A stretch of 64,000 nt of DNA from a candidate division WOR-3 bacterium (GCA_039803925.1 JBDRZL010000001.1:172800-236799), one strand, 5' to 3'; shown: positions 7,396-16,084, counted from the stretch's first letter. The notes: generated from the letters alone by a model not told the origin. Translations and numbers: made by a program.

Positions 7396-9738
7396 ATGAT
7401 TAAATTATTACTGATTTTTTATCCTCTCTATAATACCTTAGGGGAGAATATCCCTGTGAGTTACCCATTTGGAAGTCAGAGCATCTTTTTCAACCCTGCC
7501 ATAATTGGTTCAGAATTTAACCCTTCCTATACTATTTCACTTCTTGGAACAAACCTTGCCCTTACTAATAACGCATTATCAATATCCCTTTATAATGATA
7601 TAATGTCTGCTAATGGTGATTCACTTAATAGGGAATTAAAAGATAAAATTTTAAAATACTCAGGTAATGCATGGAAATTGAACCATCTTTCTTATTTTTC
7701 TCCTTTTTCATTTTCAATAGGAAGGTTTGCTATGGGGTTTAGATTAATTCAAGGGTCTTTTATGATGATTCCAGAACCCTGGTTAAGGCTATTATTATAT
7801 GGAAATGAACTTGATAAAGTTTACGAAGCTAATAAGAATAACACAGCACTTCAGGTTCTTAATCTTTTTGAAATAAAAACGGGTTTTGGAAACGGTATTT
7901 TCCTTGATCCAAATGAAAAATTCAGATTACTTTATGGACTTTCTTTTTCTTTCTATATTTCAGGACCCTATCTTGAATTAAGTGATATTAATGTTAAATT
8001 AAATTCCTCAAGTGATGCAATAACAGGAAATGATTTTTTAAGTATAAGAGCAGATACAAACTTTTTTAACTTTGGATATTCAATGGATTTTGGTTTTGGT
8101 TTTGAATATAAAAAACTTTTTAATTTTTCTTTTGGATTTTCCAATATAATATCAAATCTAAACTTTTCAAAAGGAGTAATTTTTAGTCACAGGGGAAATC
8201 TTGATTCCCTTTATATAGGTGAAGGAATAGATTACGACACAATTGCAACCGATGATGTGGACACAATACCCGGAGCTTTCAGTGTAAAATTACCCTTGAT
8301 TTTCAAATTTTCAAGTTTTTACAGGCATCCAGAGGATAAATACAGATTGTTTTTTGCCTATGAACAGGGTTTTAAAAACACAGCCTTTTCTACAAAAACA
8401 CCGAGAATTTCCTTGGGTAGTGAGTATTTTGTCCATCCAAGAATCCCTTTAAGAGCAGGGTTTACTTTTGGAGGTTACGAAGGTTTTGCCTTTTCTCTTG
8501 GATTTGGTATAATAAGTAGGGATATTTCATCCATAAATATAGGAATATCACAGCATAGAGGAATTTTTACAGGAAGTAGAGGAATTTCTTTATCCTTTTT
8601 AACTGAATTTCATTCACCTTTTAAGGGTAAATTTAAGTTTAGAATTATAGATTCACTTACCAATAAACCTATAGCAAATGCTGTTTTAAGGTTAATTGAT
8701 ACAAAAGATAAAAAGGTTTTTGAAGGTTTAAGCGATGTTAATGGTGAAATAAAGGGTGAAATAAAAGGAGGTAAGTATAAATTTGATGTTGAGGCAGATG
8801 ATTATTATTCAAAATCAGGTCCTTTTGTAATAAAATCCGGAGAAAAAAGAGAAGAAAAGGTTCCTTTAAAAACAAAATTTGGAATCTTAACACTTTATGT
8901 TAAGAATAAAGATAATGAAGAGCCTTTAAGTGATGTGGATGTTACTATTCAATATAAAGAAAAAACTACAAAGGTAAAAACAGATAGAACAGGAACTCTA
9001 AAATTTAAACTGGAAAAAGGAGAATATACATTCAGGTTTGAACACCCTGATTATGTTCTCAAAACTGAAAGAATTTCCATAGAACCGGGAACAGTTAAAG
9101 AGGTAGATGTTTTCCTTTCAACAAAATGGGGAATTGTGAAAGGTAAGGTTTTTAATGCTCAAACAATGGAAACTCTTTCAGGTGATATAGAAATTTACCC
9201 TGAAAATAAAGATAGTTTAATTCAAAAAATTGTATCTCCTTCTGAGGGAACTTATGAGGTAAAACTCCTTGAAGGTATTTATCTATTTAAAGTAAAAGTT
9301 CCCAATTATATACCACAGGCAGCTTATGTTCAGGTTAAAGGTGGAGCTGTTTTAATAAAAGATTTTCCTATGTTAAAGGAAAAAATGGTATTTACCTTTA
9401 GAAATATATATTTTGATTTTAACAAAGCAACAATTAGACCTGAATCTTATCCTATACTTGATTCAATTTCTATAATGCTAAAGGATAATCCTACAATAAT
9501 TGTTGAAATAGGTGGTCATACTGATGAAAGGGGTTCAAATGCATACAATAAAAAATTGAGCCAGGGAAGAGCTGATGCTGTCAGGATTTATTTTATTGAT
9601 AAACATGGAATAGATCCATCAAGATTAATAGCAATTGGTTACGGAGAAGATAGACCTGTTATAAGAAATGCAAAAACTGAAGATGAACACCAGATGAATA
9701 GAAGGGTTGAATTTAAAATACTGGGAGAAAAGAAATAA
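7396..9738 (+). CDS. OmpA-family outer-membrane protein with three CarbopepD_reg-like beta-sandwich repeats
   Basis: The C-terminal OmpA_C-like domain reads NIYFDFNKATIRPES...GHTDERGSNAYNKKLSQGRADAV...NRRVEFKIL. Three internal repeats have the pattern FKFRIIDSLTNKPI...VLRLID, VDVTIQYKEKTT and GKVFNAQT. The start abuts the upstream gene stop. Confidence 0.7.
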   Translation: MIKLLLIFYPLYNTLGENIPVSYPFGSQSIFFNPAIIGSEFNPSYTISLLGTNLALTNNALSISLYNDIMSANGDSLNRELKDKILKYSGNAWKLNHLSYFSPFSFSIGRFAMGFRLIQGSFMMIPEPWLRLLLYGNELDKVYEANKNNTALQVLNLFEIKTGFGNGIFLDPNEKFRLLYGLSFSFYISGPYLELSDINVKLNSSSDAITGNDFLSIRADTNFFNFGYSMDFGFGFEYKKLFNFSFGFSNIISNLNFSKGVIFSHRGNLDSLYIGEGIDYDTIATDDVDTIPGAFSVKLPLIFKFSSFYRHPEDKYRLFFAYEQGFKNTAFSTKTPRISLGSEYFVHPRIPLRAGFTFGGYEGFAFSLGFGIISRDISSINIGISQHRGIFTGSRGISLSFLTEFHSPFKGKFKFRIIDSLTNKPIANAVLRLIDTKDKKVFEGLSDVNGEIKGEIKGGKYKFDVEADDYYSKSGPFVIKSGEKREEKVPLKTKFGILTLYVKNKDNEEPLSDVDVTIQYKEKTTKVKTDRTGTLKFKLEKGEYTFRFEHPDYVLKTERISIEPGTVKEVDVFLSTKWGIVKGKVFNAQTMETLSGDIEIYPENKDSLIQKIVSPSEGTYEVKLLEGIYLFKVKVPNYIPQAAYVQVKGGAVLIKDFPMLKEKMVFTFRNIYFDFNKATIRPESYPILDSISIMLKDNPTIIVEIGGHTDERGSNAYNKKLSQGRADAVRIYFIDKHGIDPSRLIAIGYGEDRPVIRNAKTEDEHQMNRRVEFKILGEKK

Positions 9739-9744
9739 TTTAAG

Positions 9745-12714
9745 TTAATCTTTTAAAATTTTTTCCGGGTTAAAGAAGGGATTTTCTTCAAATCCAGTCC
9801 GATAAATATCACTTTTTATTCTATTTTTCAAGTCTTCAAATATATATATATAATTTTTAAGAAGAAACTTCACCGCATCGTATCTTTCAATTTTTTTACA
9901 TATCTTTAAAAGTTCTCTTAATATGATAATATGTAAGATAGGTATAGGGTATTTAAAAATTTCTTCAAATAGAAGTTTCAAATCCTCACTTAATCTTGTG
10001 CTTTCCTTAATTTTCTTAATTGCTTTAATGTAAAACTTCTGGTAAAAGGGGAAATTTGGATTTTCTTCTATTTCTCCTATATCTATTTTTTTAAAAAACT
10101 CTTCATTTGTATTAAGAAAAATCGTAAAAAATATATAAGGATCCCTTAGGAATGAAAGATTTAAATCTAAAGTAGTTGCTTCGTTTCCTTCAAGAAGAGA
10201 TTTAATATTCTTAAAATAAAAAATATATGGAAGGTTTTCAAATTTTTGAGAAAAAGATAGTCCTATTTTAAAAGCAGAATTGAATAAATTCTCATTTTTC
10301 AAAAATATACCCAGGAAAGCTTTTATTTTAAGAACATCAATTAAATTTTCAAAGTTCATTTCCATATAAGAAGATTTTTCTGCATCAAGAATAGTGTTTA
10401 AGGAATCTTCAAGATTTCCTGTCCAGAATAAAAGGTCAGAAAGTTTCAATTTAAATTCAGAAAGAAAAACTCCCTTCTTTTTAAGTTCATTACTTGCTCT
10501 TCTCATAAAAATAAGCGAATCAAAGAATAGACCTTCTTTCTGGTAAAGAAAAGACCATGTTATATTAACTTTAGCTGAGGTAATTTCATCTTTAATTTTT
10601 ATATCCCTCAAAAATTTTTTTGCAGATTCAAGACTTCCCCTTTCAATATAAGACTTTGAGAGATAAAGATTAATTTCATTCCATTTTTCATCTTTTTCCT
10701 CTGTCAGAAGTAGTGCTTTGTGAAAATGTTGAATAGATTTTTCAAAATCTTTGGCAAGAAAAGAATATACTCCTTTCAGGAAAAAGTAATCACCCATATC
10801 AAGGGGTTTTACTTTATAGTTTTTTATAACTTCATCATCTATTTTTTCAAAAATAAAATTCGGTATAAAACCCGTCCCTTCTCTTAAAAGTTTTTTTAAA
10901 CTCTTTATACCGTATTTCCATGCTTTATCATATTCTCTCGCCTTTAAAGAGTTTATAAAAACAAAATAAGGGTTCTCTTCAGCCCAGGGACTATCTAAAA
11001 CAGCATCAACAATTTCTTTATGAATCCTTTCTTTAATTAAATCGGGTAATGATTCATAGATTACTTCTCTAACAAGTGGATTAACAAATAAAATTCTATT
11101 GTTTTCAATTCTTAAAATATCATTTAAAATAAGTTTGTCTAAATTTTTTTCTATTTTGTGAGAGAAGTATTCTGAAAGAGGAGAATCAAGGTCAAGTTCA
11201 GTAACAGCACTTAATATTTCCAATAAATCTCTCTCTCCTTCAGTAAGTTCCTGAATCGGTGATAGAACAATACTTATTAAAGAAAGTGGAAGTTCAGGTT
11301 TTTCTTTGATATCTTTTTTCCTTACTTTTAAACTTTTTAAATACTGAGTTATAAATAGAGGGATACCCCCGGTTTTTGGGTGAATTTCAAGAATTATCTC
11401 TGGACTTACATCAGGGAAGTATTTTAATATTAATTCTTTTGTTTCATCATAATCAAAAGCTCTCAAATTGATTCTATAAACATTTTTAGGATCTAAAGAT
11501 ATTGGTAAGACTCTCCCTGTTAAAATAATCAGGGTTTTTTCAATTTTTGATTTTAAAAAGTTTATAAATTCAATTGTAAAAGGGTCAGTTCTATCTATAT
11601 CATCAAAAAATATAATAAGGTTACCTTTTTTATTGCATATAACTCTTAAAAGATCAAATAAAAGATATTTAAGTTTTTCTCTATTAGGTTTTTCTTCTAT
11701 TCTCTCAAAAAAATAAGAAAAGCTTTTTAAAAAAGTTTCAAGATATCTTTTTATAAATTTAAATTCCTCTTTATTTAAGGAATTCTCAATAAATAACCTG
11801 AAAGGGTAGAGCGGTTCGTTAGAATATATATCACTTCCTTTAAGTTTTATAATAAAACCTTTATCTTTTAATTTTTTTAAATAATTTTCTGTAAGAAATG
11901 TTTTTCCAATCCCTGCTTCACCTGTTATTATTACACTTTTAGTTTCTCCCTTTTCCCATTCACCTATAATTGCTTCTAATCTTCCCTTAACATCACTTCT
12001 TTCTATATAGGGAACTTGGAATTCCTCATAAATAATTTCCTTCCTTTCAGAAATCAAAGTATAAACATCAATTCTATCAAATTTTCCTTTTAACTTGATT
12101 TTTCCCATATGTTCAAATTCATAAAAATTCATAGCAGTTTCGTATATATCAACACAAACATATTTTCTGTTATTAAAGAGAGTAGAAAGTCTTGCAGAGG
12201 TATTCACACAATCACCAAGAGCTGTTATAGACATGCTATTTCCTGATTCAATTTCTCCAAAGAATGCCCATCCAGAACATATTCCTATACCATATTCACA
12301 TAAATCTGAAAAATTTTTTTTAATTAACTCTTCAACTTTAAAAGAAAAATCAATAACTTTAAAAATAAGGTCTCTTTCAAATTCATTATAACCAAATATA
12401 AAAAGTCCGCCTTCAAAATGATTGAATTTCTCAAAAAAACCATCATAATTAACACATAATTCATCAATTTTTTTTAAAAAATAGTGGAACTTAGAAATTA
12501 AAAGAGCATTTATTTTTGTTTTCCATTTTAGACTCAGAAAGAAAGAAATAACATATTTTTTTCTAAGATAAATTGCAATTTTTTCTTTATCAGGAACAAT
12601 AACTTTTACATCTTTTAGTTTTAAACCACAATATGTACAAAAGTTATAGATATCTCTAACATAAGATTTACATCTCTTACATTGAATTCTATTTTCAGTT
12701 TCTATCACTTTCAA
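9745..12714 (-). CDS. zinc-ribbon / class III nucleotidyl cyclase-homology domain / STAND (AAA_16) ATPase / TPR-repeat protein
   Basis: An N-terminal CxxC...CxxC ribbon precedes a CHD with GIGICSGWAFFGEIESG and ITALGDCVNTSARL (Asn/Arg motif retained, metal-binding Asp positions replaced). Walker A IITGEAGIGKTFL follows. The C-terminal ~450 aa are TPR-like. Its start overlaps the stop of the upstream HEAT-repeat gene. Confidence 0.65.
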   Translation of the reverse strand: MKVIETENRIQCKRCKSYVRDIYNFCTYCGLKLKDVKVIVPDKEKIAIYLRKKYVISFFLSLKWKTKINALLISKFHYFLKKIDELCVNYDGFFEKFNHFEGGLFIFGYNEFERDLIFKVIDFSFKVEELIKKNFSDLCEYGIGICSGWAFFGEIESGNSMSITALGDCVNTSARLSTLFNNRKYVCVDIYETAMNFYEFEHMGKIKLKGKFDRIDVYTLISERKEIIYEEFQVPYIERSDVKGRLEAIIGEWEKGETKSVIITGEAGIGKTFLTENYLKKLKDKGFIIKLKGSDIYSNEPLYPFRLFIENSLNKEEFKFIKRYLETFLKSFSYFFERIEEKPNREKLKYLLFDLLRVICNKKGNLIIFFDDIDRTDPFTIEFINFLKSKIEKTLIILTGRVLPISLDPKNVYRINLRAFDYDETKELILKYFPDVSPEIILEIHPKTGGIPLFITQYLKSLKVRKKDIKEKPELPLSLISIVLSPIQELTEGERDLLEILSAVTELDLDSPLSEYFSHKIEKNLDKLILNDILRIENNRILFVNPLVREVIYESLPDLIKERIHKEIVDAVLDSPWAEENPYFVFINSLKAREYDKAWKYGIKSLKKLLREGTGFIPNFIFEKIDDEVIKNYKVKPLDMGDYFFLKGVYSFLAKDFEKSIQHFHKALLLTEEKDEKWNEINLYLSKSYIERGSLESAKKFLRDIKIKDEITSAKVNITWSFLYQKEGLFFDSLIFMRRASNELKKKGVFLSEFKLKLSDLLFWTGNLEDSLNTILDAEKSSYMEMNFENLIDVLKIKAFLGIFLKNENLFNSAFKIGLSFSQKFENLPYIFYFKNIKSLLEGNEATTLDLNLSFLRDPYIFFTIFLNTNEEFFKKIDIGEIEENPNFPFYQKFYIKAIKKIKESTRLSEDLKLLFEEIFKYPIPILHIIILRELLKICKKIERYDAVKFLLKNYIYIFEDLKNRIKSDIYRTGFEENPFFNPEKILKD

Positions 12715-15334
12715 ATCTCCTTAATCCCATAGTTGCTGCCAGTTTTACAGAAGAATCAGAATCCTTAATAAGTTCCTCTAAATAACTTTTGATTTTTTCT
12801 GTTTTATATTTTGATAAAACTCTTACTAATTCTGTTCTTATTCCAGAAGGATATTTAGGTTTCTTTAAAAATGTTTTTTCAAATAAAATCTTTTCTATAA
12901 AAGGGTACACCTTTTCAGGTGAATGTTTCATTACAAAATTAAAAGCAGGAATTACAAGTTCGTTAAAATCTTCTTTTTCAATTGTTTCTTTAATAAACTT
13001 AGAGATTACATCCACACTTTTTTCAGTCCCTATTTTTAAAAGTGTTCTTATACATTCTATCTTGACTTCCTTTCCAGGATATTCAATGTAAACCTCAATA
13101 ATATCATCTTCAACTTTTGGATTATTAATTTTTGATAAAGCTCTGAGTACCTCTAATCTTACTATATCCTGACCGGTTTTTAAAAATTTTACTAAAAGAG
13201 GTAAACCTTCTTCATCTTTACTTTCCCCAAGTATAAACACTATATCTCTTTGTGTTTTCCAGTTTTCTTCTTCAAGAGCTTCATAAAATTCCTTCCTATA
13301 ATCTGGTGGAAAAGCTGCAAGAATTTTAGCTATTCTTCTTCTGATAGCAATATTTTCAATTTCTGGAAATATCTCTTTAAGCGCATTAAATCCTTCCTTA
13401 CCTGAAGAAAGAAGTGCCTCTTTCACTTCTATTTCTGTATCTTCATCCCATAGAGCTGTTAGAAGCATCCTTAAGGCAAATTGAGTACCTACTTTTCCAA
13501 GTGCTCTTATTGCCATTTTTTTCTTTGATTCTGAATCAAGTAAATCTCTAAAAGTTTTCTGTATATCTTCAACAATAAAATCTTTCCCCTTTATCTTTGC
13601 AATTTCTACAATTTTTTCAAGACCATCAATATATGAAAAGATAACAGCTGGATGTTCCTCTTCTTGTATTTTTGATTTTATAAGATTTATTAATTTTTCA
13701 AGTGGTCCAAGTTTATCTGACTTTATAAAGGACACTGCTAAAGCAGCAATAGCACTAACAGCTGAACTTCTTTCATTTTCGTCTCCTTTGTTCAGTTTTT
13801 CTAAGAGTGGTTCAAGGACAAGATCCATTTCAGAGGCACCAATTCCCTCTTCAAGTTCCTTTTCCATAAATTTCAATTTCTTTTCACCTGTTATAACAAG
13901 TCTTTTTTCTCTTGTAACTCTTTCAAGCATTTCCAACTCTTTATCCTGATAGGAAATCTCACTCTTAGTGTATACTTTCCTTTTTTCAAGAATATCCTTA
14001 ATTGTATCAGGTACAGTTGTATCTCCTTCTTTTATACCAGATAAAAGAGAAATAAGTTCTTCATCCTTCATTTCCTCAAGAACTTTCCTTATTGATTGGG
14101 CAATTTCCCTGTGTTTTTCTGATTCTTGAAGGAACCTTCTTTTTAAAGAGGGAGATAAAATTTTAAGGATTTGTGAAACAATAAGTGAAAGGCCTGAAAA
14201 TCCTTCTTCTCCATATTTTTCAAGTAAATAATAGGCAACTATTTTTAAAGCAGAAACAATACTTAAAATTTTGGAACTATCGAAATCCTCTTTAAGATCA
14301 ATTCCAACCATTTTTAAAAAGATATCCCTTATTTCCTTTTCTTTTTCTTCATCCTTTAATTCCTCAATTTTATTAAAAATTTTATCAATTTTTTCTTCAA
14401 TTTCAGAACCAGCCCGAACTTCTTCATAAATATTAGGTGAAACAATTCCTTCATAATCTTTTTCTTCTTTAAAAGCACTTACACCTTCTGTTTCAAAGGG
14501 AATTAAAAAACTCGGAATTTTATTCAAAATTTCTTTCCTTTTATCTTCAGGGACAAATGATAAAATATCACTTCTTTTTTCCCTTGGTATTTCAGAAAGA
14601 ATAAGTAAAAAATCACTTTCATCCATAGAAACCATTATCTCTCTGATTTTATTTTTGATTTCTTCATCTTTCAAAAATTCAGACAGGAGATTTTCGCCTC
14701 CTTCCATCATTATTGAAGAAAAGATTTTTGATAACTGAAGAGGATTAATTTTTTTAGCATTTTTGAAAAGATTTTTAGTCTTAGTAAGCATATCTTCTCC
14801 TGGTATTGATTTTATAAGATTTAAAGGATTATCAGTGTTTTCTATTTCTTTCAAAACTGACTCAAGGTCAAACTTTATTTCTTTATCAGTGGTAGATGAG
14901 CTCAAGGTAAACTTCACTTCATTGAATCTGATTTTTTCTATATTTTTTTGAAGCAGAAATTCTGTTGGATCCTGTGTTTCTAAAAATTTTTTTGCCGGAA
15001 GAGTAAAAACCTCAAAAAATCCTTTTATATCTTCTTGGGTAACATCTCTGTCAATTGATACACTCTCAATTTTATATCTTGATAGCTGTTTTGATAAAGA
15101 TAGAATTGCAGGAATTTTACTTATATCCATTCTTGTTTCCTCAAATAGAATTATATTTTCAAAGAAATAAATTGATAATGTTTTGTATTTAGTTGGAAAT
15201 TTTTTTATAACCTCTAAAAACTGTTCTGCTAATCTCGTAAAAGCAGGGTGTCCGGGTGGATACATTTTTGAATAATTTAAACCAACCCCCATTTGTTTTA
15301 AAAGTTCTACTAATAAATTTTCAATTTGCTCCAT
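12695..15334 (-). CDS. HEAT/PBS-lyase-like repeat protein, hypothetical
   Basis: At 879 aa it is alpha-helical and the C-terminal half has repeated HEAT-like units (e.g. NNPKVEDDIIEVYIEYPG..., SSVKLAATMGLRRF). It is translationally coupled to both flanking cyclase-domain genes. Confidence 0.5.
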   Translation of the reverse strand: MEQIENLLVELLKQMGVGLNYSKMYPPGHPAFTRLAEQFLEVIKKFPTKYKTLSIYFFENIILFEETRMDISKIPAILSLSKQLSRYKIESVSIDRDVTQEDIKGFFEVFTLPAKKFLETQDPTEFLLQKNIEKIRFNEVKFTLSSSTTDKEIKFDLESVLKEIENTDNPLNLIKSIPGEDMLTKTKNLFKNAKKINPLQLSKIFSSIMMEGGENLLSEFLKDEEIKNKIREIMVSMDESDFLLILSEIPREKRSDILSFVPEDKRKEILNKIPSFLIPFETEGVSAFKEEKDYEGIVSPNIYEEVRAGSEIEEKIDKIFNKIEELKDEEKEKEIRDIFLKMVGIDLKEDFDSSKILSIVSALKIVAYYLLEKYGEEGFSGLSLIVSQILKILSPSLKRRFLQESEKHREIAQSIRKVLEEMKDEELISLLSGIKEGDTTVPDTIKDILEKRKVYTKSEISYQDKELEMLERVTREKRLVITGEKKLKFMEKELEEGIGASEMDLVLEPLLEKLNKGDENERSSAVSAIAALAVSFIKSDKLGPLEKLINLIKSKIQEEEHPAVIFSYIDGLEKIVEIAKIKGKDFIVEDIQKTFRDLLDSESKKKMAIRALGKVGTQFALRMLLTALWDEDTEIEVKEALLSSGKEGFNALKEIFPEIENIAIRRRIAKILAAFPPDYRKEFYEALEEENWKTQRDIVFILGESKDEEGLPLLVKFLKTGQDIVRLEVLRALSKINNPKVEDDIIEVYIEYPGKEVKIECIRTLLKIGTEKSVDVISKFIKETIEKEDFNELVIPAFNFVMKHSPEKVYPFIEKILFEKTFLKKPKYPSGIRTELVRVLSKYKTEKIKSYLEELIKDSDSSVKLAATMGLRRFESDRN

Positions 15335-15941
15335 GTAAGACTACCTCCCTTAAAATGTAAAAATTAAAATTATCAAAGCTTCTTTTTTCAAGCATATCTC
15401 CTTCAAAAATTTTCTCTGGTTCTCCTATTAAACCGATTTCTCCTTCTTTTACAATTGTTTTTAAATCATTAATTTTATTAATAAAATCAGAAATAAGTAT
15501 TAAATATGCCTTTTCTCCTGTTTTAACCGGAAAAACTATTGTGTTACCATATCCACCAAACATATGCATTCTGAAATTTACTTTCAAAAGTTTTGAGTTA
15601 AAAAAATCCTTTATATCTTTTAAAAAGCTAAAAAATTCAGCTTTTTCAAATTTTTTTACAAGTCCCCATAAAATTTCAATCTCGTCACCTATATATTGGT
15701 TAACATATCCTCCATTTTTTTCTGCTATATTTCTTAAATTGGAAAATAAAAGAGAAAGATTTATTTTTAAGTCAAAAAGTTCTATTTTTTCTGTTAGATG
15801 AGTAAATCCTATTATATCCATTCTAAAAACCAGAAGTTCCTTTTCCGTAAAATCTTTACTAATGAAAAAACCACAATTCTGGCAGAAAAAACCTTTTCTA
15901 TCAATTTCCGAACCGCATCTTAAGCATACCTCATAATACAT
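15321..15941 (-). CDS. zinc-ribbon plus small class III nucleotidyl cyclase-homology domain protein
   Basis: A CLRCGSEIDRKGFFCQNCG ribbon is followed by LLVFRMDIIGFTHL and GGYVNQYIGDEIEILWG. These match the CHD metal-binding Asp motifs, while the distal Asn/Arg motif is degenerate (ISDFINKINDL). It is the first gene of a three-gene minus-strand operon. Confidence 0.55.
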   Translation of the reverse strand: MYYEVCLRCGSEIDRKGFFCQNCGFFISKDFTEKELLVFRMDIIGFTHLTEKIELFDLKINLSLLFSNLRNIAEKNGGYVNQYIGDEIEILWGLVKKFEKAEFFSFLKDIKDFFNSKLLKVNFRMHMFGGYGNTIVFPVKTGEKAYLILISDFINKINDLKTIVKEGEIGLIGEPEKIFEGDMLEKRSFDNFNFYILREVVLHGAN

Positions 15942-16084
15942 TAATTAAAATTTTAAAGTTTTTTATAAAAAAAATCAACTATAAAATTTTTATCTTCTTC
16001 TAATTTATCTTCTTCTAAAAAAGGGCTCAAAAACAAAATAAAAAATTATAAAAATAAAAAATACAACATAAAAAATTTTTATCA

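What the first reader, a model, noticed from the sequence alone, without database searches (positions are those of the whole stretch)
9745..15941. Three-gene operon: small cyclase-domain protein, HEAT-repeat protein, and cyclase-domain-STAND-TPR protein, with complementary degenerate catalytic motifs
Both flanking proteins start with a double-CxxC zinc ribbon fused directly to a class III nucleotidyl cyclase homology domain. The small protein keeps both metal-binding Asp positions (RMDIIGFT, YIGDEIEILWG) but has a degenerate Asn/Arg motif. The large protein has lost both Asp (ISFFLSLKW, IFGYNEF) but keeps GDCVNTSARL. This is the complementation pattern of asymmetric heterodimeric cyclases (mammalian C1/C2), here split across two genes that are translationally coupled through an 879-aa HEAT-repeat protein. 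The large protein continues into an AAA_16/STAND ATPase and TPR array. That architecture is known from mycobacterial LuxR-type cyclases, but it also resembles Avs-type STAND sensors with an N-terminal effector. It could be a ligand-gated cNMP signalling module or a defence-like sensor.
Basis: partly seen in the sequence, partly recalled or inferred. Interest (0 to 1): 0.55.

Follow-up and report, generated by a model that had tools for sequence, protein, structure and literature searches.

The report
Split two-gene cyclase with STAND and HEAT partners
A conserved three-gene bacterial operon encodes two half-defective cyclase proteins whose surviving catalytic residues fit together like the two halves of the mammalian adenylyl cyclase, plus a HEAT-repeat partner; this probably makes cAMP only as a heterodimer, but no activity has been measured.

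Summary
Three overlapping minus-strand genes encode a 206-aa Zn-ribbon + cyclase homology domain (CHD) protein, an 879-aa HEAT protein, and a 987/989-aa Zn-ribbon–CHD–STAND–helical protein. Both CHDs are genuine class III folds. In 19 small/large pairs from at least five deep clades, every small protein keeps both metal Asp, the F-T phosphate loop and a basic residue at the C1-Arg position, but has lost the catalytic Asn (17/19) and Arg (18/19). Every large protein lacks Asp at both metal positions but keeps Lys (18/19), Thr, Asn (19/19), Arg (18/19) and the KG lysine. This is the C1/C2 division of labour, here split across two genes. The three genes stay clustered in two gene orders. The two cyclase genes are lost together, apparently twice. 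The HEAT protein's unannotated N-domain is elsewhere fused to GGDEF–AAA_16 proteins. The locus is core and syntenic in WOR-3/Hydrothermae MAGs and is not a defence island. Best reading: an obligate heterodimeric, probably adenylyl, cyclase controlled by a STAND NTPase and a HEAT sensor or scaffold. Catalysis, product and protein contacts are inferred, not shown. New variant of a known kind.

The parts
15321..15941 (-). Small subunit gene (206 aa): N-terminal 4-Cys zinc ribbon + C1-like cyclase homology domain
   Evidence: ORF. 100% identical to P0001 from a WOR-3 MAG. PDB hits to CyaB and bPAC over aa 33-93. AF2 + Foldseek give a class III cyclase fold.
15873..15926 (-). Zinc ribbon of the small subunit (C6, C9, C20, C23)
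   Evidence: All four Cys are invariant in 6 paired lineages. Weak Pfam DZR hit.
15342..15845 (-). CHD of the small subunit (aa ~33-200): D42 and D86 (metal ligands), F46-T47 (phosphate loop), H125 (C1-Arg position); Asn/Arg motif degenerate
   Evidence: D42/D86 are invariant. Table of 19 sequences: D1 19/19, GD 19/19, F-T 19/19, basic residue at the C1-Arg position 19/19, Asn kept 2/19, Arg kept 1/19.
12695..15334 (-). Middle gene (879 aa): unannotated conserved N-domain + variable helical middle + C-terminal PBS-type HEAT repeats
   Evidence: ORF. Pfam HEAT_2 2.5e-24. alphaRep-like PDB hits over aa 588-783. Family alignment A5.
14840..15334 (-). N-domain of the HEAT protein (aa 1-165; motifs LKQ..K.YPxGHP, YFxEN, SID): a putative sensor or regulatory module with no Pfam or PDB relative
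   Evidence: No Pfam hit and no PDB sequence relative. Profile search finds 374 representative proteins at E<=1e-3. Found fused to GGDEF-AAA_16 and to PAS-HisKA-HATPase.
12695..13807 (-). HEAT-repeat array of the middle protein (aa ~510-879)
   Evidence: Pfam HEAT_2 (5 stretches) and HEAT_PBS. PDB alphaRep hits.
9745..12714 (-). Large subunit gene (989 aa from TTG 12714; more likely 987 aa from GTG 12708): Zn ribbon + C2-like CHD + AAA_16/STAND NTPase + helical/TPR-like C-terminus
   Evidence: ORF. P0009 100% identical, 987 aa. SD spacing favours GTG 12708. Pfam AAA_16 2e-10.
12628..12681 (-). Zinc ribbon of the large subunit (C12, C15, C26, C29; 989-aa numbering)
   Evidence: Invariant Cys. 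Weak Pfam Zn_ribbon_3/DZR hits.
12040..12567 (-). CHD of the large subunit (aa ~50-225): K96, T164, N171, R175, K209 kept; metal-Asp positions are S61 and F100/E101
   Evidence: bPAC 3.8e-7. AF2 pLDDT 84.6. Foldseek CyaB 2.5e-13, TM 0.81. Residue table.
11413..12003 (-). AAA_16 / STAND NTPase core (aa 238-434): Walker A GEAGIGKT (265-272), Walker B IIFFDD, GGIPLF motif further downstream
   Evidence: Pfam AAA_16, NB-ARC and NACHT hits. Motifs conserved in all clades.
9745..10914 (-). C-terminal helical / TPR-like region of the large subunit (aa ~600-989)
   Evidence: Weak TPR_2 hit over aa 643-672. Orthologues in L007/L009 carry weak or faint TPR_12/TPR_MalT hits. The distant canonical family is CHD-AAA_16-TPR.
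15942..16084 (-). 143-bp AT-rich intergenic region upstream of the small gene (presumed promoter region)
   Evidence: Sequence. A sigma70-like match lies at 15978-15950, but the number of such matches in the region is not above chance.

Best explanation
The operon encodes a three-component cyclic-nucleotide signalling machine.

The two cyclase homology domains are complementary halves of one enzyme. The small protein is C1-like: it supplies the two metal-binding Asp (D42, D86), the F46-T47 phosphate loop and a basic residue at the C1-Arg position. The large protein is C2-like: it supplies the base-recognising Lys/Thr pair (K96, T164), the transition-state Asn/Arg (N171, R175) and the gamma-phosphate Lys (K209).

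Only a small:large head-to-tail heterodimer would form a complete active site. It would form exactly one, next to a degenerate pseudo-site. Either homodimer should be inactive. The Lys/Thr pair predicts ATP as substrate and cAMP as product.

The large subunit's STAND NTPase and helical/TPR arm act as a nucleotide-dependent switch that decides when its CHD is available or correctly positioned. The HEAT protein, through its N-domain, acts as a sensor or scaffold subunit bound to the STAND part.

Shown here: the folds, the residue partition and its deep conservation, the gene linkage, the co-loss of the two cyclase genes, the domain fusions, and the core (non-mobile) context. Inferred: heterodimer formation, catalysis, the product, the STAND gating, the role and contacts of the HEAT protein, and the signal sensed.
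For: Folds: both are full class III CHDs. Among the mammalian AC chains, the small model matches VC1 chains (1cjk_A, 1azs_A) and the large matches IIC2 chains (1cs4_B, 1cjt_B).

Residue partition in 19 pairs from at least five clades, down to ~22-30% identity. Small proteins: D1 19/19, GD 19/19, F-T 19/19, basic residue at the C1-Arg position 19/19, Asn 2/19, Arg 1/19. Large proteins: no Asp at either metal position (one sequence is 5'-truncated at D1), Lys 18/19, Thr 19/19, Asn 19/19, Arg 18/19, K/R of the KG motif 19/19.

Linkage: 14-nt overlaps with internal SDs. The module is kept in gene order small-HEAT-large and large-small-HEAT. 14 of 18 metagenome loci found through the HEAT N-domain carry all three genes.

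Co-loss: L010 vs L032 (99% identical flanks) and L016 vs L015 lost both cyclase genes together.

Rosetta-stone fusion: GGDEF-AAA_16-N-domain-HEAT in one chain (P0081, P0083, P0189).

STAND motifs are intact in all clades.

Background: bacterial class III ACs form their active sites across the dimer interface (PMC9552081). That engineered Rv1625c point mutants complement each other (Guo et al. 2001) is from my own knowledge.
Against: Pfam does not call a cyclase domain in either window protein at its gathering threshold.

The small-subunit model is only moderately confident (pLDDT 69).

The window clade has a conserved Glu (E101) at or next to the second metal position of the large CHD, so some residual metal binding cannot be excluded.

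One divergent lineage (L020) departs from the pattern: its large protein has Lys->W/E and Arg->Lys, and its small protein keeps the Arg.

The HEAT gene persists without the cyclase genes in several lineages, so it is not dedicated solely to the cyclase.

No cNMP receptor was identified near the operon.
Confidence: 0.6

Rival explanations
1. Both CHDs are pseudo-cyclases. The degenerate domains no longer catalyse anything and serve as dimerisation or nucleotide-binding (regulatory) modules of a STAND/HEAT signalling complex whose output is something else, such as protein-protein signalling to a Che-like pathway.
For: Each protein alone lacks essential residues. Pfam scores are below threshold. 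No cNMP-binding gene is nearby. The HEAT protein works without the cyclases in some lineages and lies next to a Che cluster. Non-catalytic cyclase subunits have precedent (R. centenum gcyB/gcyC, PMC4681086).
Against: The residues that stay invariant over deep divergence are exactly the catalytic ones, and exactly one complete set is kept between the two proteins (D, D, F-T loop in the small; K, T, N, R, K in the large). A purely structural role would not hold all of these at 18-19/19 while the complementary positions drift freely.
Confidence: 0.22
2. It is an anti-phage defence system: an Avs-like STAND sensor with an N-terminal cyclase effector (Pycsar/CBASS-like signalling).
For: STAND NTPase with repeat sensor and an N-terminal enzymatic domain. 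Weak PADLOC PycC similarity (E=0.0038 small, 0.07 large) and a HEAT-ARM_XIII hit to the HEAT repeats.
Against: The core syntenic position is the same in all close relatives. GC content equals the flanks. There are no Avs or other PADLOC STAND hits, and the PycC hits are generic cyclase-fold similarity at 10-14 bits. No effector, mobile-element or other defence genes were noted among the annotated neighbours. Other contexts are housekeeping (purH/guaA). The nearest relatives are signalling CHD-AAA_16-TPR proteins.
Confidence: 0.04
3. The two CHD proteins work separately as homodimers with non-canonical chemistry, for example the large one using E101 and another acidic residue for metal binding. 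The clustering would then reflect co-regulation only.
For: E101 is conserved within the window clade. A D/E lies two residues after the first metal position in the Hydrothermus clade under one alignment.
Against: Neither acidic residue is conserved across clades: position 101 is E/K/N/R/Y and the first metal position is S/T/R/I/L/K/G/F/E. The small homodimer would lack Asn and Arg altogether. Joint loss of both genes and their persistent adjacency in two gene orders argue for joint function.
Confidence: 0.06
4. A heterodimeric cyclase as in the best explanation, but with a product other than cAMP (cGMP, or a pyrimidine cNMP).
For: Specificity is predicted only from the Lys/Thr pair. One divergent lineage (L020) lacks Lys at that position (W or E depending on the alignment). 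Class III enzymes with atypical pairs can be promiscuous (own knowledge: Rv0386).
Against: Lys 18/19 and Thr 19/19 is the pair seen in the solved ATP-specific bacterial cyclases that are the best sequence and structure matches (CyaB, bPAC, CyaC).
Confidence: 0.08

Closest known systems
Mammalian membrane adenylyl cyclase C1/C2 pseudo-heterodimer (and soluble guanylyl cyclase alpha/beta)
   Same: The division of catalytic residues is the same. One CHD gives the two metal Asp, the phosphate loop and an Arg. The other gives Lys, Asp/Thr, Asn, Arg and the KG Lys. The result is one active site plus one degenerate pseudo-site. Foldseek pairs the small protein with VC1 chains and the large with IIC2 chains.
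   Different: Here there are two separate soluble proteins from two genes rather than one membrane polypeptide. Each is preceded by a zinc ribbon. The C2-like half is fused to a STAND NTPase. The partition probably arose independently in bacteria.
CHD-AAA_16(STAND)-TPR cyclases, e.g. M. tuberculosis Rv0386-type and Zn-ribbon-CHD-AAA_16-TPR proteins (P0015, P0032)
   Same: The large subunit has the same domain order (Zn ribbon, CHD, AAA_16, helical/TPR). It is a distant homologue over about half its length (E 1e-14, 23% identity).
   Different: The canonical members keep both metal Asp in one chain, as seen in the six aligned (P0014, P0015, P0016, P0022, P0032, P0033), and are presumed homodimers. 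The large subunit here has lost both and has a 1-residue hairpin insertion. It has no LuxR HTH. It always comes with a small CHD partner and a HEAT protein.
Engineered complementing mutants of the homodimeric Rv1625c cyclase (own knowledge: Guo et al. 2001, a paper cited in PMC9552081)
   Same: A metal-Asp mutant and a transition-state-Arg mutant, each dead alone, regain activity as a heterodimer with one active site. This is the mechanism proposed here.
   Different: That is a laboratory construct. This would be a naturally evolved and conserved version.
Chytrid rhodopsin-guanylyl-cyclase heterodimers (RGC/NeoR; PMC8815786, PMC12264004)
   Same: Obligate heterodimers of two separately encoded class III cyclase proteins in a microbe.
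   Different: Those are eukaryotic, membrane-bound and light-gated. They have no STAND or HEAT partner.
Rhodospirillum centenum guanylyl cyclase with GcyB/GcyC subunits (PMC4681086)
   Same: A bacterial nucleotide cyclase reported to need additional, separately encoded subunits from an operon.
   Different: GcyB and GcyC are described as non-catalytic subunits. No complementary CHD pair, STAND or HEAT protein is described. Homology was not tested here.
GGDEF-AAA_16-N-domain-HEAT single-chain proteins (P0081, P0083, P0189; uncharacterised)
   Same: They contain a nucleotide-cyclase-type output domain, an AAA_16 STAND NTPase, and the same N-domain (with HEAT repeats in P0081 and P0083) as the middle protein.
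   Different: The output there is a diguanylate-cyclase (GGDEF) domain, and everything is in one polypeptide. There is no small partner.

Membership tests
Class III nucleotidyl cyclase (cyclase homology domain, PF00211) | CHD fold (beta-alpha-beta-beta-alpha-beta palm) | tested here: met
   AF2 models. All top Foldseek PDB hits are class III cyclases: large E 2.5e-13, TM 0.81-0.84; small E 1.4e-9, TM 0.6-0.69. HHalign to canonical CHDs 99.6-99.8%.
Class III nucleotidyl cyclase (cyclase homology domain, PF00211) | Sequence match to the family model at the curated threshold | tested here: not met
   Small protein 12.4 bits against a cutoff of 21.9; large protein no hit. Large orthologues in L007/L009 do carry precomputed PF00211 hits.
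Class III nucleotidyl cyclase (cyclase homology domain, PF00211) | Two metal-binding Asp in the same chain as the Asn/Arg transition-state pair (self-sufficient homodimer) | tested here: not met
   Small protein: Asp pair present, Asn/Arg lost. Large protein: Asp pair lost, Asn/Arg present.
Class III nucleotidyl cyclase (cyclase homology domain, PF00211) | Cyclase activity | not testable with these tools
   Needs protein expression and an enzyme assay.
C1/C2-type asymmetric heterodimeric cyclase (works-like comparison) | Complementary partition of catalytic residues between two different CHDs, giving one complete site | tested here: met
   Table of 19 pairs. Invariant columns in the paired alignment.
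C1/C2-type asymmetric heterodimeric cyclase (works-like comparison) | Physical head-to-tail heterodimer of the two CHDs | not testable with these tools
Indirect support comes from gene linkage and co-loss.
C1/C2-type asymmetric heterodimeric cyclase (works-like comparison) | Both CHDs in one membrane-anchored polypeptide (mammalian mAC) | tested here: not met
   Two separate genes. No membrane-anchor domain was detected by Pfam; transmembrane segments were not specifically predicted.
CHD-AAA_16(STAND)-TPR signalling proteins (Rv0386-like) | CHD directly N-terminal to an AAA_16 NTPase with intact Walker A/B | tested here: met
   AAA_16 2e-10 over aa 238-389. GEAGIGKT, FFDD and GGIPLF motifs conserved. 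Homologues are CHD-AAA_16-TPR proteins.
CHD-AAA_16(STAND)-TPR signalling proteins (Rv0386-like) | C-terminal TPR array | tested here: inconclusive
   Only TPR_2 at E=0.004, below cutoff. Orthologues have weak or faint TPR_12/TPR_MalT hits.
CHD-AAA_16(STAND)-TPR signalling proteins (Rv0386-like) | C-terminal LuxR-type HTH (mycobacterial subgroup) | tested here: not met
   No HTH or GerE hit in Pfam or NCBIfam.
Avs-type antiviral STAND / Pycsar defence systems | Match to defence-system protein models | tested here: not met
   PADLOC gives only PycC at 14 and 10 bits, SspF at 15-16 bits, and a HEAT-repeat hit. No Avs model matches.
Avs-type antiviral STAND / Pycsar defence systems | Variable, island-like genomic context with an effector gene | tested here: not met
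   Conserved core synteny. Flanks are housekeeping genes. GC content equals that of the neighbours.
PBS-lyase-type HEAT repeat proteins | HEAT_2/HEAT_PBS repeats above threshold | tested here: met
   HEAT_2 85.8 bits (cutoff 27.7) and HEAT_PBS 28.2 bits (cutoff 20.9). alphaRep PDB hits at 1e-19.

The most novel reading that the evidence does not exclude
A previously undescribed, independently evolved prokaryotic counterpart of the eukaryotic C1/C2 cyclase. It would be an obligate two-gene heterodimeric adenylyl cyclase whose C2-like half is built into a STAND NTPase switch, controlled by a third subunit carrying a new, widespread sensor-type N-domain plus HEAT repeats. In some lineages this hub protein would also link to an adjacent receptor-less CheW-CheY-CheA-CheC/X pathway, so that a Che-type phosphorelay and cAMP synthesis share one input module.
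Probability: 0.3. Interest if true: 0.78.

Novelty: new variant of a known kind. Interest (0 to 1): 0.62.

Why it matters
A review of the field states that bacterial class III cyclases homodimerise and that both monomers contribute equally to two active centres (PMC9552081). The asymmetric one-site C1/C2 design is treated there as arising by gene duplication and fusion in early eukaryotes.

A naturally split, conserved C1-like/C2-like pair in deep-branching thermophilic bacteria would show that this asymmetry also evolved in prokaryotes. It would also give a simple soluble two-protein model for studying how an asymmetric cyclase dimer is assembled and regulated.

It would provide a first functional handle on the large, uncharacterised CHD/GGDEF-AAA_16 STAND signalling proteins. 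It would also define a new input domain (374 representative proteins) for which no function is known.

Tried and rejected
- **Defence reading.** The PADLOC scan, context and composition gave no support. Rejected.
- **Che cluster in the window.** tblastn with Che proteins from L007/L010 found none. The Che adjacency is lineage-specific, so it is kept only as a lead.
- **N-terminal extensions of N-domain relatives.** I tested whether the ~230-aa extensions are hidden CHDs. A CHD HMM found nothing at E<=1e-2. Rejected.
- **HEAT N-domain against PDB.** The sequence profile found nothing meaningful.
- **Broad N-domain alignment (A7).** Too divergent for the metagenome scan. A narrower one (A8) worked.
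- **The look-up of encoding contigs for P0001.** Not on record. P0068's contig was too short to show neighbours.
- **RNA features.** Rfam and tRNA scans of the window found nothing. Promoter-like matches are not above chance and no terminator-like site lies at the operon's 3' end.
- **Literature.** Searches for a natural bacterial split or complementary class III heterodimer, or for GGDEF-AAA_16-HEAT proteins, found no description. The library is incomplete, so absence is not proof. The text of PMC2447327 as held was truncated and unhelpful.

Full report
**What is there.** Window 9745-15941 holds three minus-strand ORFs:
- a 206-aa protein (15941..15321);
- an 879-aa protein (15334..12695);
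- a 989-aa protein (12714..9745 from TTG).

The sequence shows AGGGAGG just upstream of the ATG of the middle gene, inside the 3' end of the small gene. It shows AAGGAG 8 nt upstream of a GTG at 12708. That GTG gives the 987-aa model that NCBI uses for the identical MAG protein P0009. Both junctions then overlap by 14 nt, an arrangement consistent with translational coupling. The source is a candidate division WOR-3 MAG (P0001, P0009 and P0042 are 100% identical). GC content (0.27-0.29) matches the rest of the window. Residue numbers for the large protein below use the 989-aa numbering.

**Are the cyclase domains real?** Pfam alone is unconvincing: the small protein scores E=0.12 for PF00211 and the large protein has no hit. 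Other evidence is consistent:
- phmmer against PDB sequences matches the small protein (aa 33-93) to CyaB (8.6e-5) and to bPAC, and the large protein (aa 100-239) to bPAC (3.8e-7).
- AlphaFold2 models have the CHD topology (small pLDDT 69.1; large aa 1-236 pLDDT 84.6).
- Every top Foldseek hit is a class III cyclase. For the large protein: CyaB 2.5e-13, target TM 0.81-0.84. For the small: CyaB 1.4e-9, TM 0.6-0.69.
- HHalign of the family profiles against canonical CHDs gives 99.6% (small) and 99.8% (large), and 98.7% between the two.

Both proteins begin with a four-Cys zinc ribbon whose cysteines are invariant.

**The catalytic residues.** I aligned the CHDs of all small and large proteins I could recover with canonical CHDs from Zn-ribbon/CHD-AAA_16-TPR proteins that keep the full motif set. 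In 19 small/large pairs:

| Position | Small proteins | Large proteins |
|---|---|---|
| First metal Asp | D 19/19 | never D (S/T/R/I/L/F/K/G/E; one sequence 5'-truncated) |
| Second metal Asp | G-D 19/19 | never D (E/K/N/R/Y), always with a 1-residue hairpin insertion |
| F-T phosphate loop | 19/19 | not conserved |
| C1-Arg ('xRIGI') position | H/K/R 19/19 | G in the window clade; R or K in the other clades |
| Substrate Lys | Q/K/R | K 18/19 |
| Thr seven residues before the Asn | variable | T 19/19 |
| Catalytic Asn | 2/19 | 19/19 |
| Catalytic Arg | 1/19 | 18/19 |
| 'KG' Lys | not conserved | K/R 19/19 |

In the window proteins these are D42, F46-T47, D86 and H125 (small), and K96, T164, N171, R175 and K209 (large), with S61 and F100/E101 at the lost metal positions. 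From established knowledge of class III cyclases (Tesmer/Sprang structures of VC1:IIC2, own knowledge), this is the residue set that C1 and C2 respectively contribute to the single mammalian active site. Consistent with this, among the mammalian AC chains the small model's Foldseek hits are VC1 chains and the large model's are IIC2 chains.

That position lies in 'KFNHFEGG'. The window clade has a conserved Glu there, but it is not conserved in other clades.

**Is the pairing more than coincidence?** Three lines of comparative evidence say yes.

1. *Linkage.* The same module sits in identical core synteny (gyrB-dciA-recF / tsaD-trxB-ccmF / module / OmpA-family gene) in all close relatives at 55-88% identity. 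In the Hydrothermus-type WOR-3 clade (HEAT protein 33-36% identical) the order is again small-HEAT-large. In other lineages, including MAG CSMAG_2763 and several metagenome contigs (one from a hydrothermal vent sample), the order is large-small-HEAT, again with overlapping genes and in a different housekeeping context (purH/guaA). Of 18 metagenome loci found with the HEAT N-domain alone, 14 carry all three genes. The rest are too short or have HEAT alone.

2. *Co-loss.* L010 and L032 are 99% identical in their flanks. L010 has cleanly lost the small and the large gene while keeping an in-frame HEAT gene. L016 compared with L015 (~85-88% identical) shows the same, apparently as a separate event.

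3. *Fusion.* A profile of the HEAT protein's N-terminal 165 residues finds 374 representative proteins. Most are N-domain + HEAT proteins. Several ~1400-aa proteins are GGDEF-AAA_16-N-domain-HEAT in one chain (P0081, P0083; P0189 lacks detectable HEAT). One is N-domain-PAS-HisKA-HATPase. This fusion ties the N-domain/HEAT protein to cyclase-type STAND proteins and marks the N-domain as a signalling input or regulatory module. The N-domain has no Pfam or PDB relative.

**The STAND part.** The large protein has AAA_16 (2e-10), with weaker NB-ARC and NACHT matches. Walker A (GEAGIGKT), Walker B (IIFFDD) and the GxP-type motif (GGIPLF) are conserved in all clades. Its distant homologues (about 23% identity over half the length) are canonical PF00211-AAA_16-TPR proteins, some with double zinc ribbons (P0015, P0032). 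The C-terminal ~390 residues are helical, with only weak TPR signals. There is no LuxR HTH.

**Mechanism proposed (inference).**
- The small and large CHDs form a head-to-tail heterodimer with one complete active site and one degenerate pseudo-site.
- The Lys/Thr pair predicts ATP as substrate and cAMP as product.
- Either homodimer should be dead, as with metal-Asp and Arg mutants of homodimeric Rv1625c, which complement each other (own knowledge; Guo et al. 2001).
- The STAND NTPase would gate availability or geometry of the C2-like CHD in response to a signal read by the helical arm and/or the HEAT protein.
- The zinc ribbons, which are also found in canonical family members, may help pair the N-termini.
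- The small gene most likely arose by duplication of the Zn-ribbon-CHD part of an ancestral full enzyme followed by subfunctionalisation: both families are closer to canonical CHDs than to each other.

**What argues against, and what is unexplained.** L020 departs somewhat from the pattern. The HEAT gene exists alone in several lineages (L010, L016, L023, L040-L042). In the Hydrothermus-type clade it lies directly upstream of a cheW-cheY-cheA-cheC/X cluster with no receptor gene in view. The window itself has no Che genes. So the HEAT protein has a role beyond the cyclase, possibly as a shared input for a Che-type pathway; that is speculation. No cAMP receptor was identified.

**Defence hypothesis.** Rejected. 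The position is core and syntenic. No defence-model hits go beyond generic cyclase-fold similarity (PycC at 14 and 10 bits). No effector, mobile-element or other defence genes were noted among the annotated neighbours, and composition is native.

**Comparison with what is known.** It works like the mammalian C1/C2 (or sGC alpha/beta) asymmetric dimer, and like engineered complementing Rv1625c mutants. By descent it belongs to the CHD-AAA_16-TPR STAND cyclase family. A review states that bacterial class III cyclases homodimerise with both monomers contributing equally to two active centres (PMC9552081). Separately encoded heterodimeric cyclases are described for chytrid rhodopsin cyclases (PMC8815786, PMC12264004), and multi-subunit bacterial cyclases with non-catalytic subunits for R. 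centenum (PMC4681086). My searches found no description of a natural bacterial split complementary pair, of its HEAT partner, or of the N-domain. The library is incomplete, so this is not proof of novelty.

**Verdict.** This is a new variant of a known kind. Confidence in the mechanism is about 0.6, and interest is 0.62.

Noticed in passing
window 14840-15334 (-); relatives P0058-P0205: The first ~165 residues of the HEAT protein are an unannotated, widespread domain (motifs K.YPxGHP, YFxEN, SID), with 374 representative proteins at E<=1e-3. It is usually followed by HEAT repeats, and is sometimes fused after GGDEF-AAA_16 or before PAS-HisKA-HATPase. It has no Pfam or PDB relative.
   Followed up: partly
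L007 13815-18754; L009 9176-14112; L010 10489-17167; L014, L015, L016, L028, L031, L032: In the Hydrothermus-type WOR-3 clade the module, or the HEAT gene alone, is followed directly by cheW-cheY-cheA-cheC/X plus large TPR and PatA_N proteins. No MCP gene is visible in the stretch held. The window itself has no Che genes.
   Followed up: partly
L010 vs L032 (and L016 vs L015): Near-identical populations (99% in the flanks) differ by clean deletion of both cyclase genes and a 314-nt internal piece of the HEAT gene. The N-domain-encoding 5' part of the HEAT gene is only 88% identical while the rest is 98-99% identical.
   Followed up: partly
L007 10741-13774: The large gene is interrupted here: a 789-aa ORF is followed by a separate 146-aa ORF that matches the C-terminus of the intact L009 large protein. 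This is either an assembly error or a pseudogene.
   Followed up: no
L013 149-2704: The HEAT gene is split into two ORFs of 407 and 408 aa in this WOR-3 MAG (frameshift or assembly error).
   Followed up: no
window 12708 vs 12714 (-): The mechanical ORF start (TTG 12714) is probably wrong. GTG 12708 has a well-spaced AAGGAG and matches the NCBI model of 987 aa.
   Followed up: yes
alignment A5, around aa 290-330 of the window HEAT protein: There is a variable Gly/Thr/Ser-rich low-complexity insert of up to ~80 residues in the HEAT proteins P0044, P0045 and P0050. It is absent in others, which suggests a flexible linker between the N-terminal part and the HEAT part.
   Followed up: no
P0092 (748 aa): An N-domain/HEAT protein whose first ~160 residues match a Mutator-family transposase. 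This is probably a chimeric gene call or an insertion.
   Followed up: no
window 7396-9738 (+): A 780-aa OmpA-family protein with CarboxypepD_reg-like repeats is convergent with the large gene. Only 6 bp separate the two stop codons, and no terminator-like site lies between them.
   Followed up: no
window 1-64000: There are no tRNA genes and no Rfam family hits at gathering threshold in the whole 64-kb window.
   Followed up: yes
L020 9516-11054; L023 9958-11469: guaA (GMP synthase) immediately follows, and slightly overlaps, the HEAT gene in two otherwise different contexts, one with and one without the cyclase genes.
   Followed up: no
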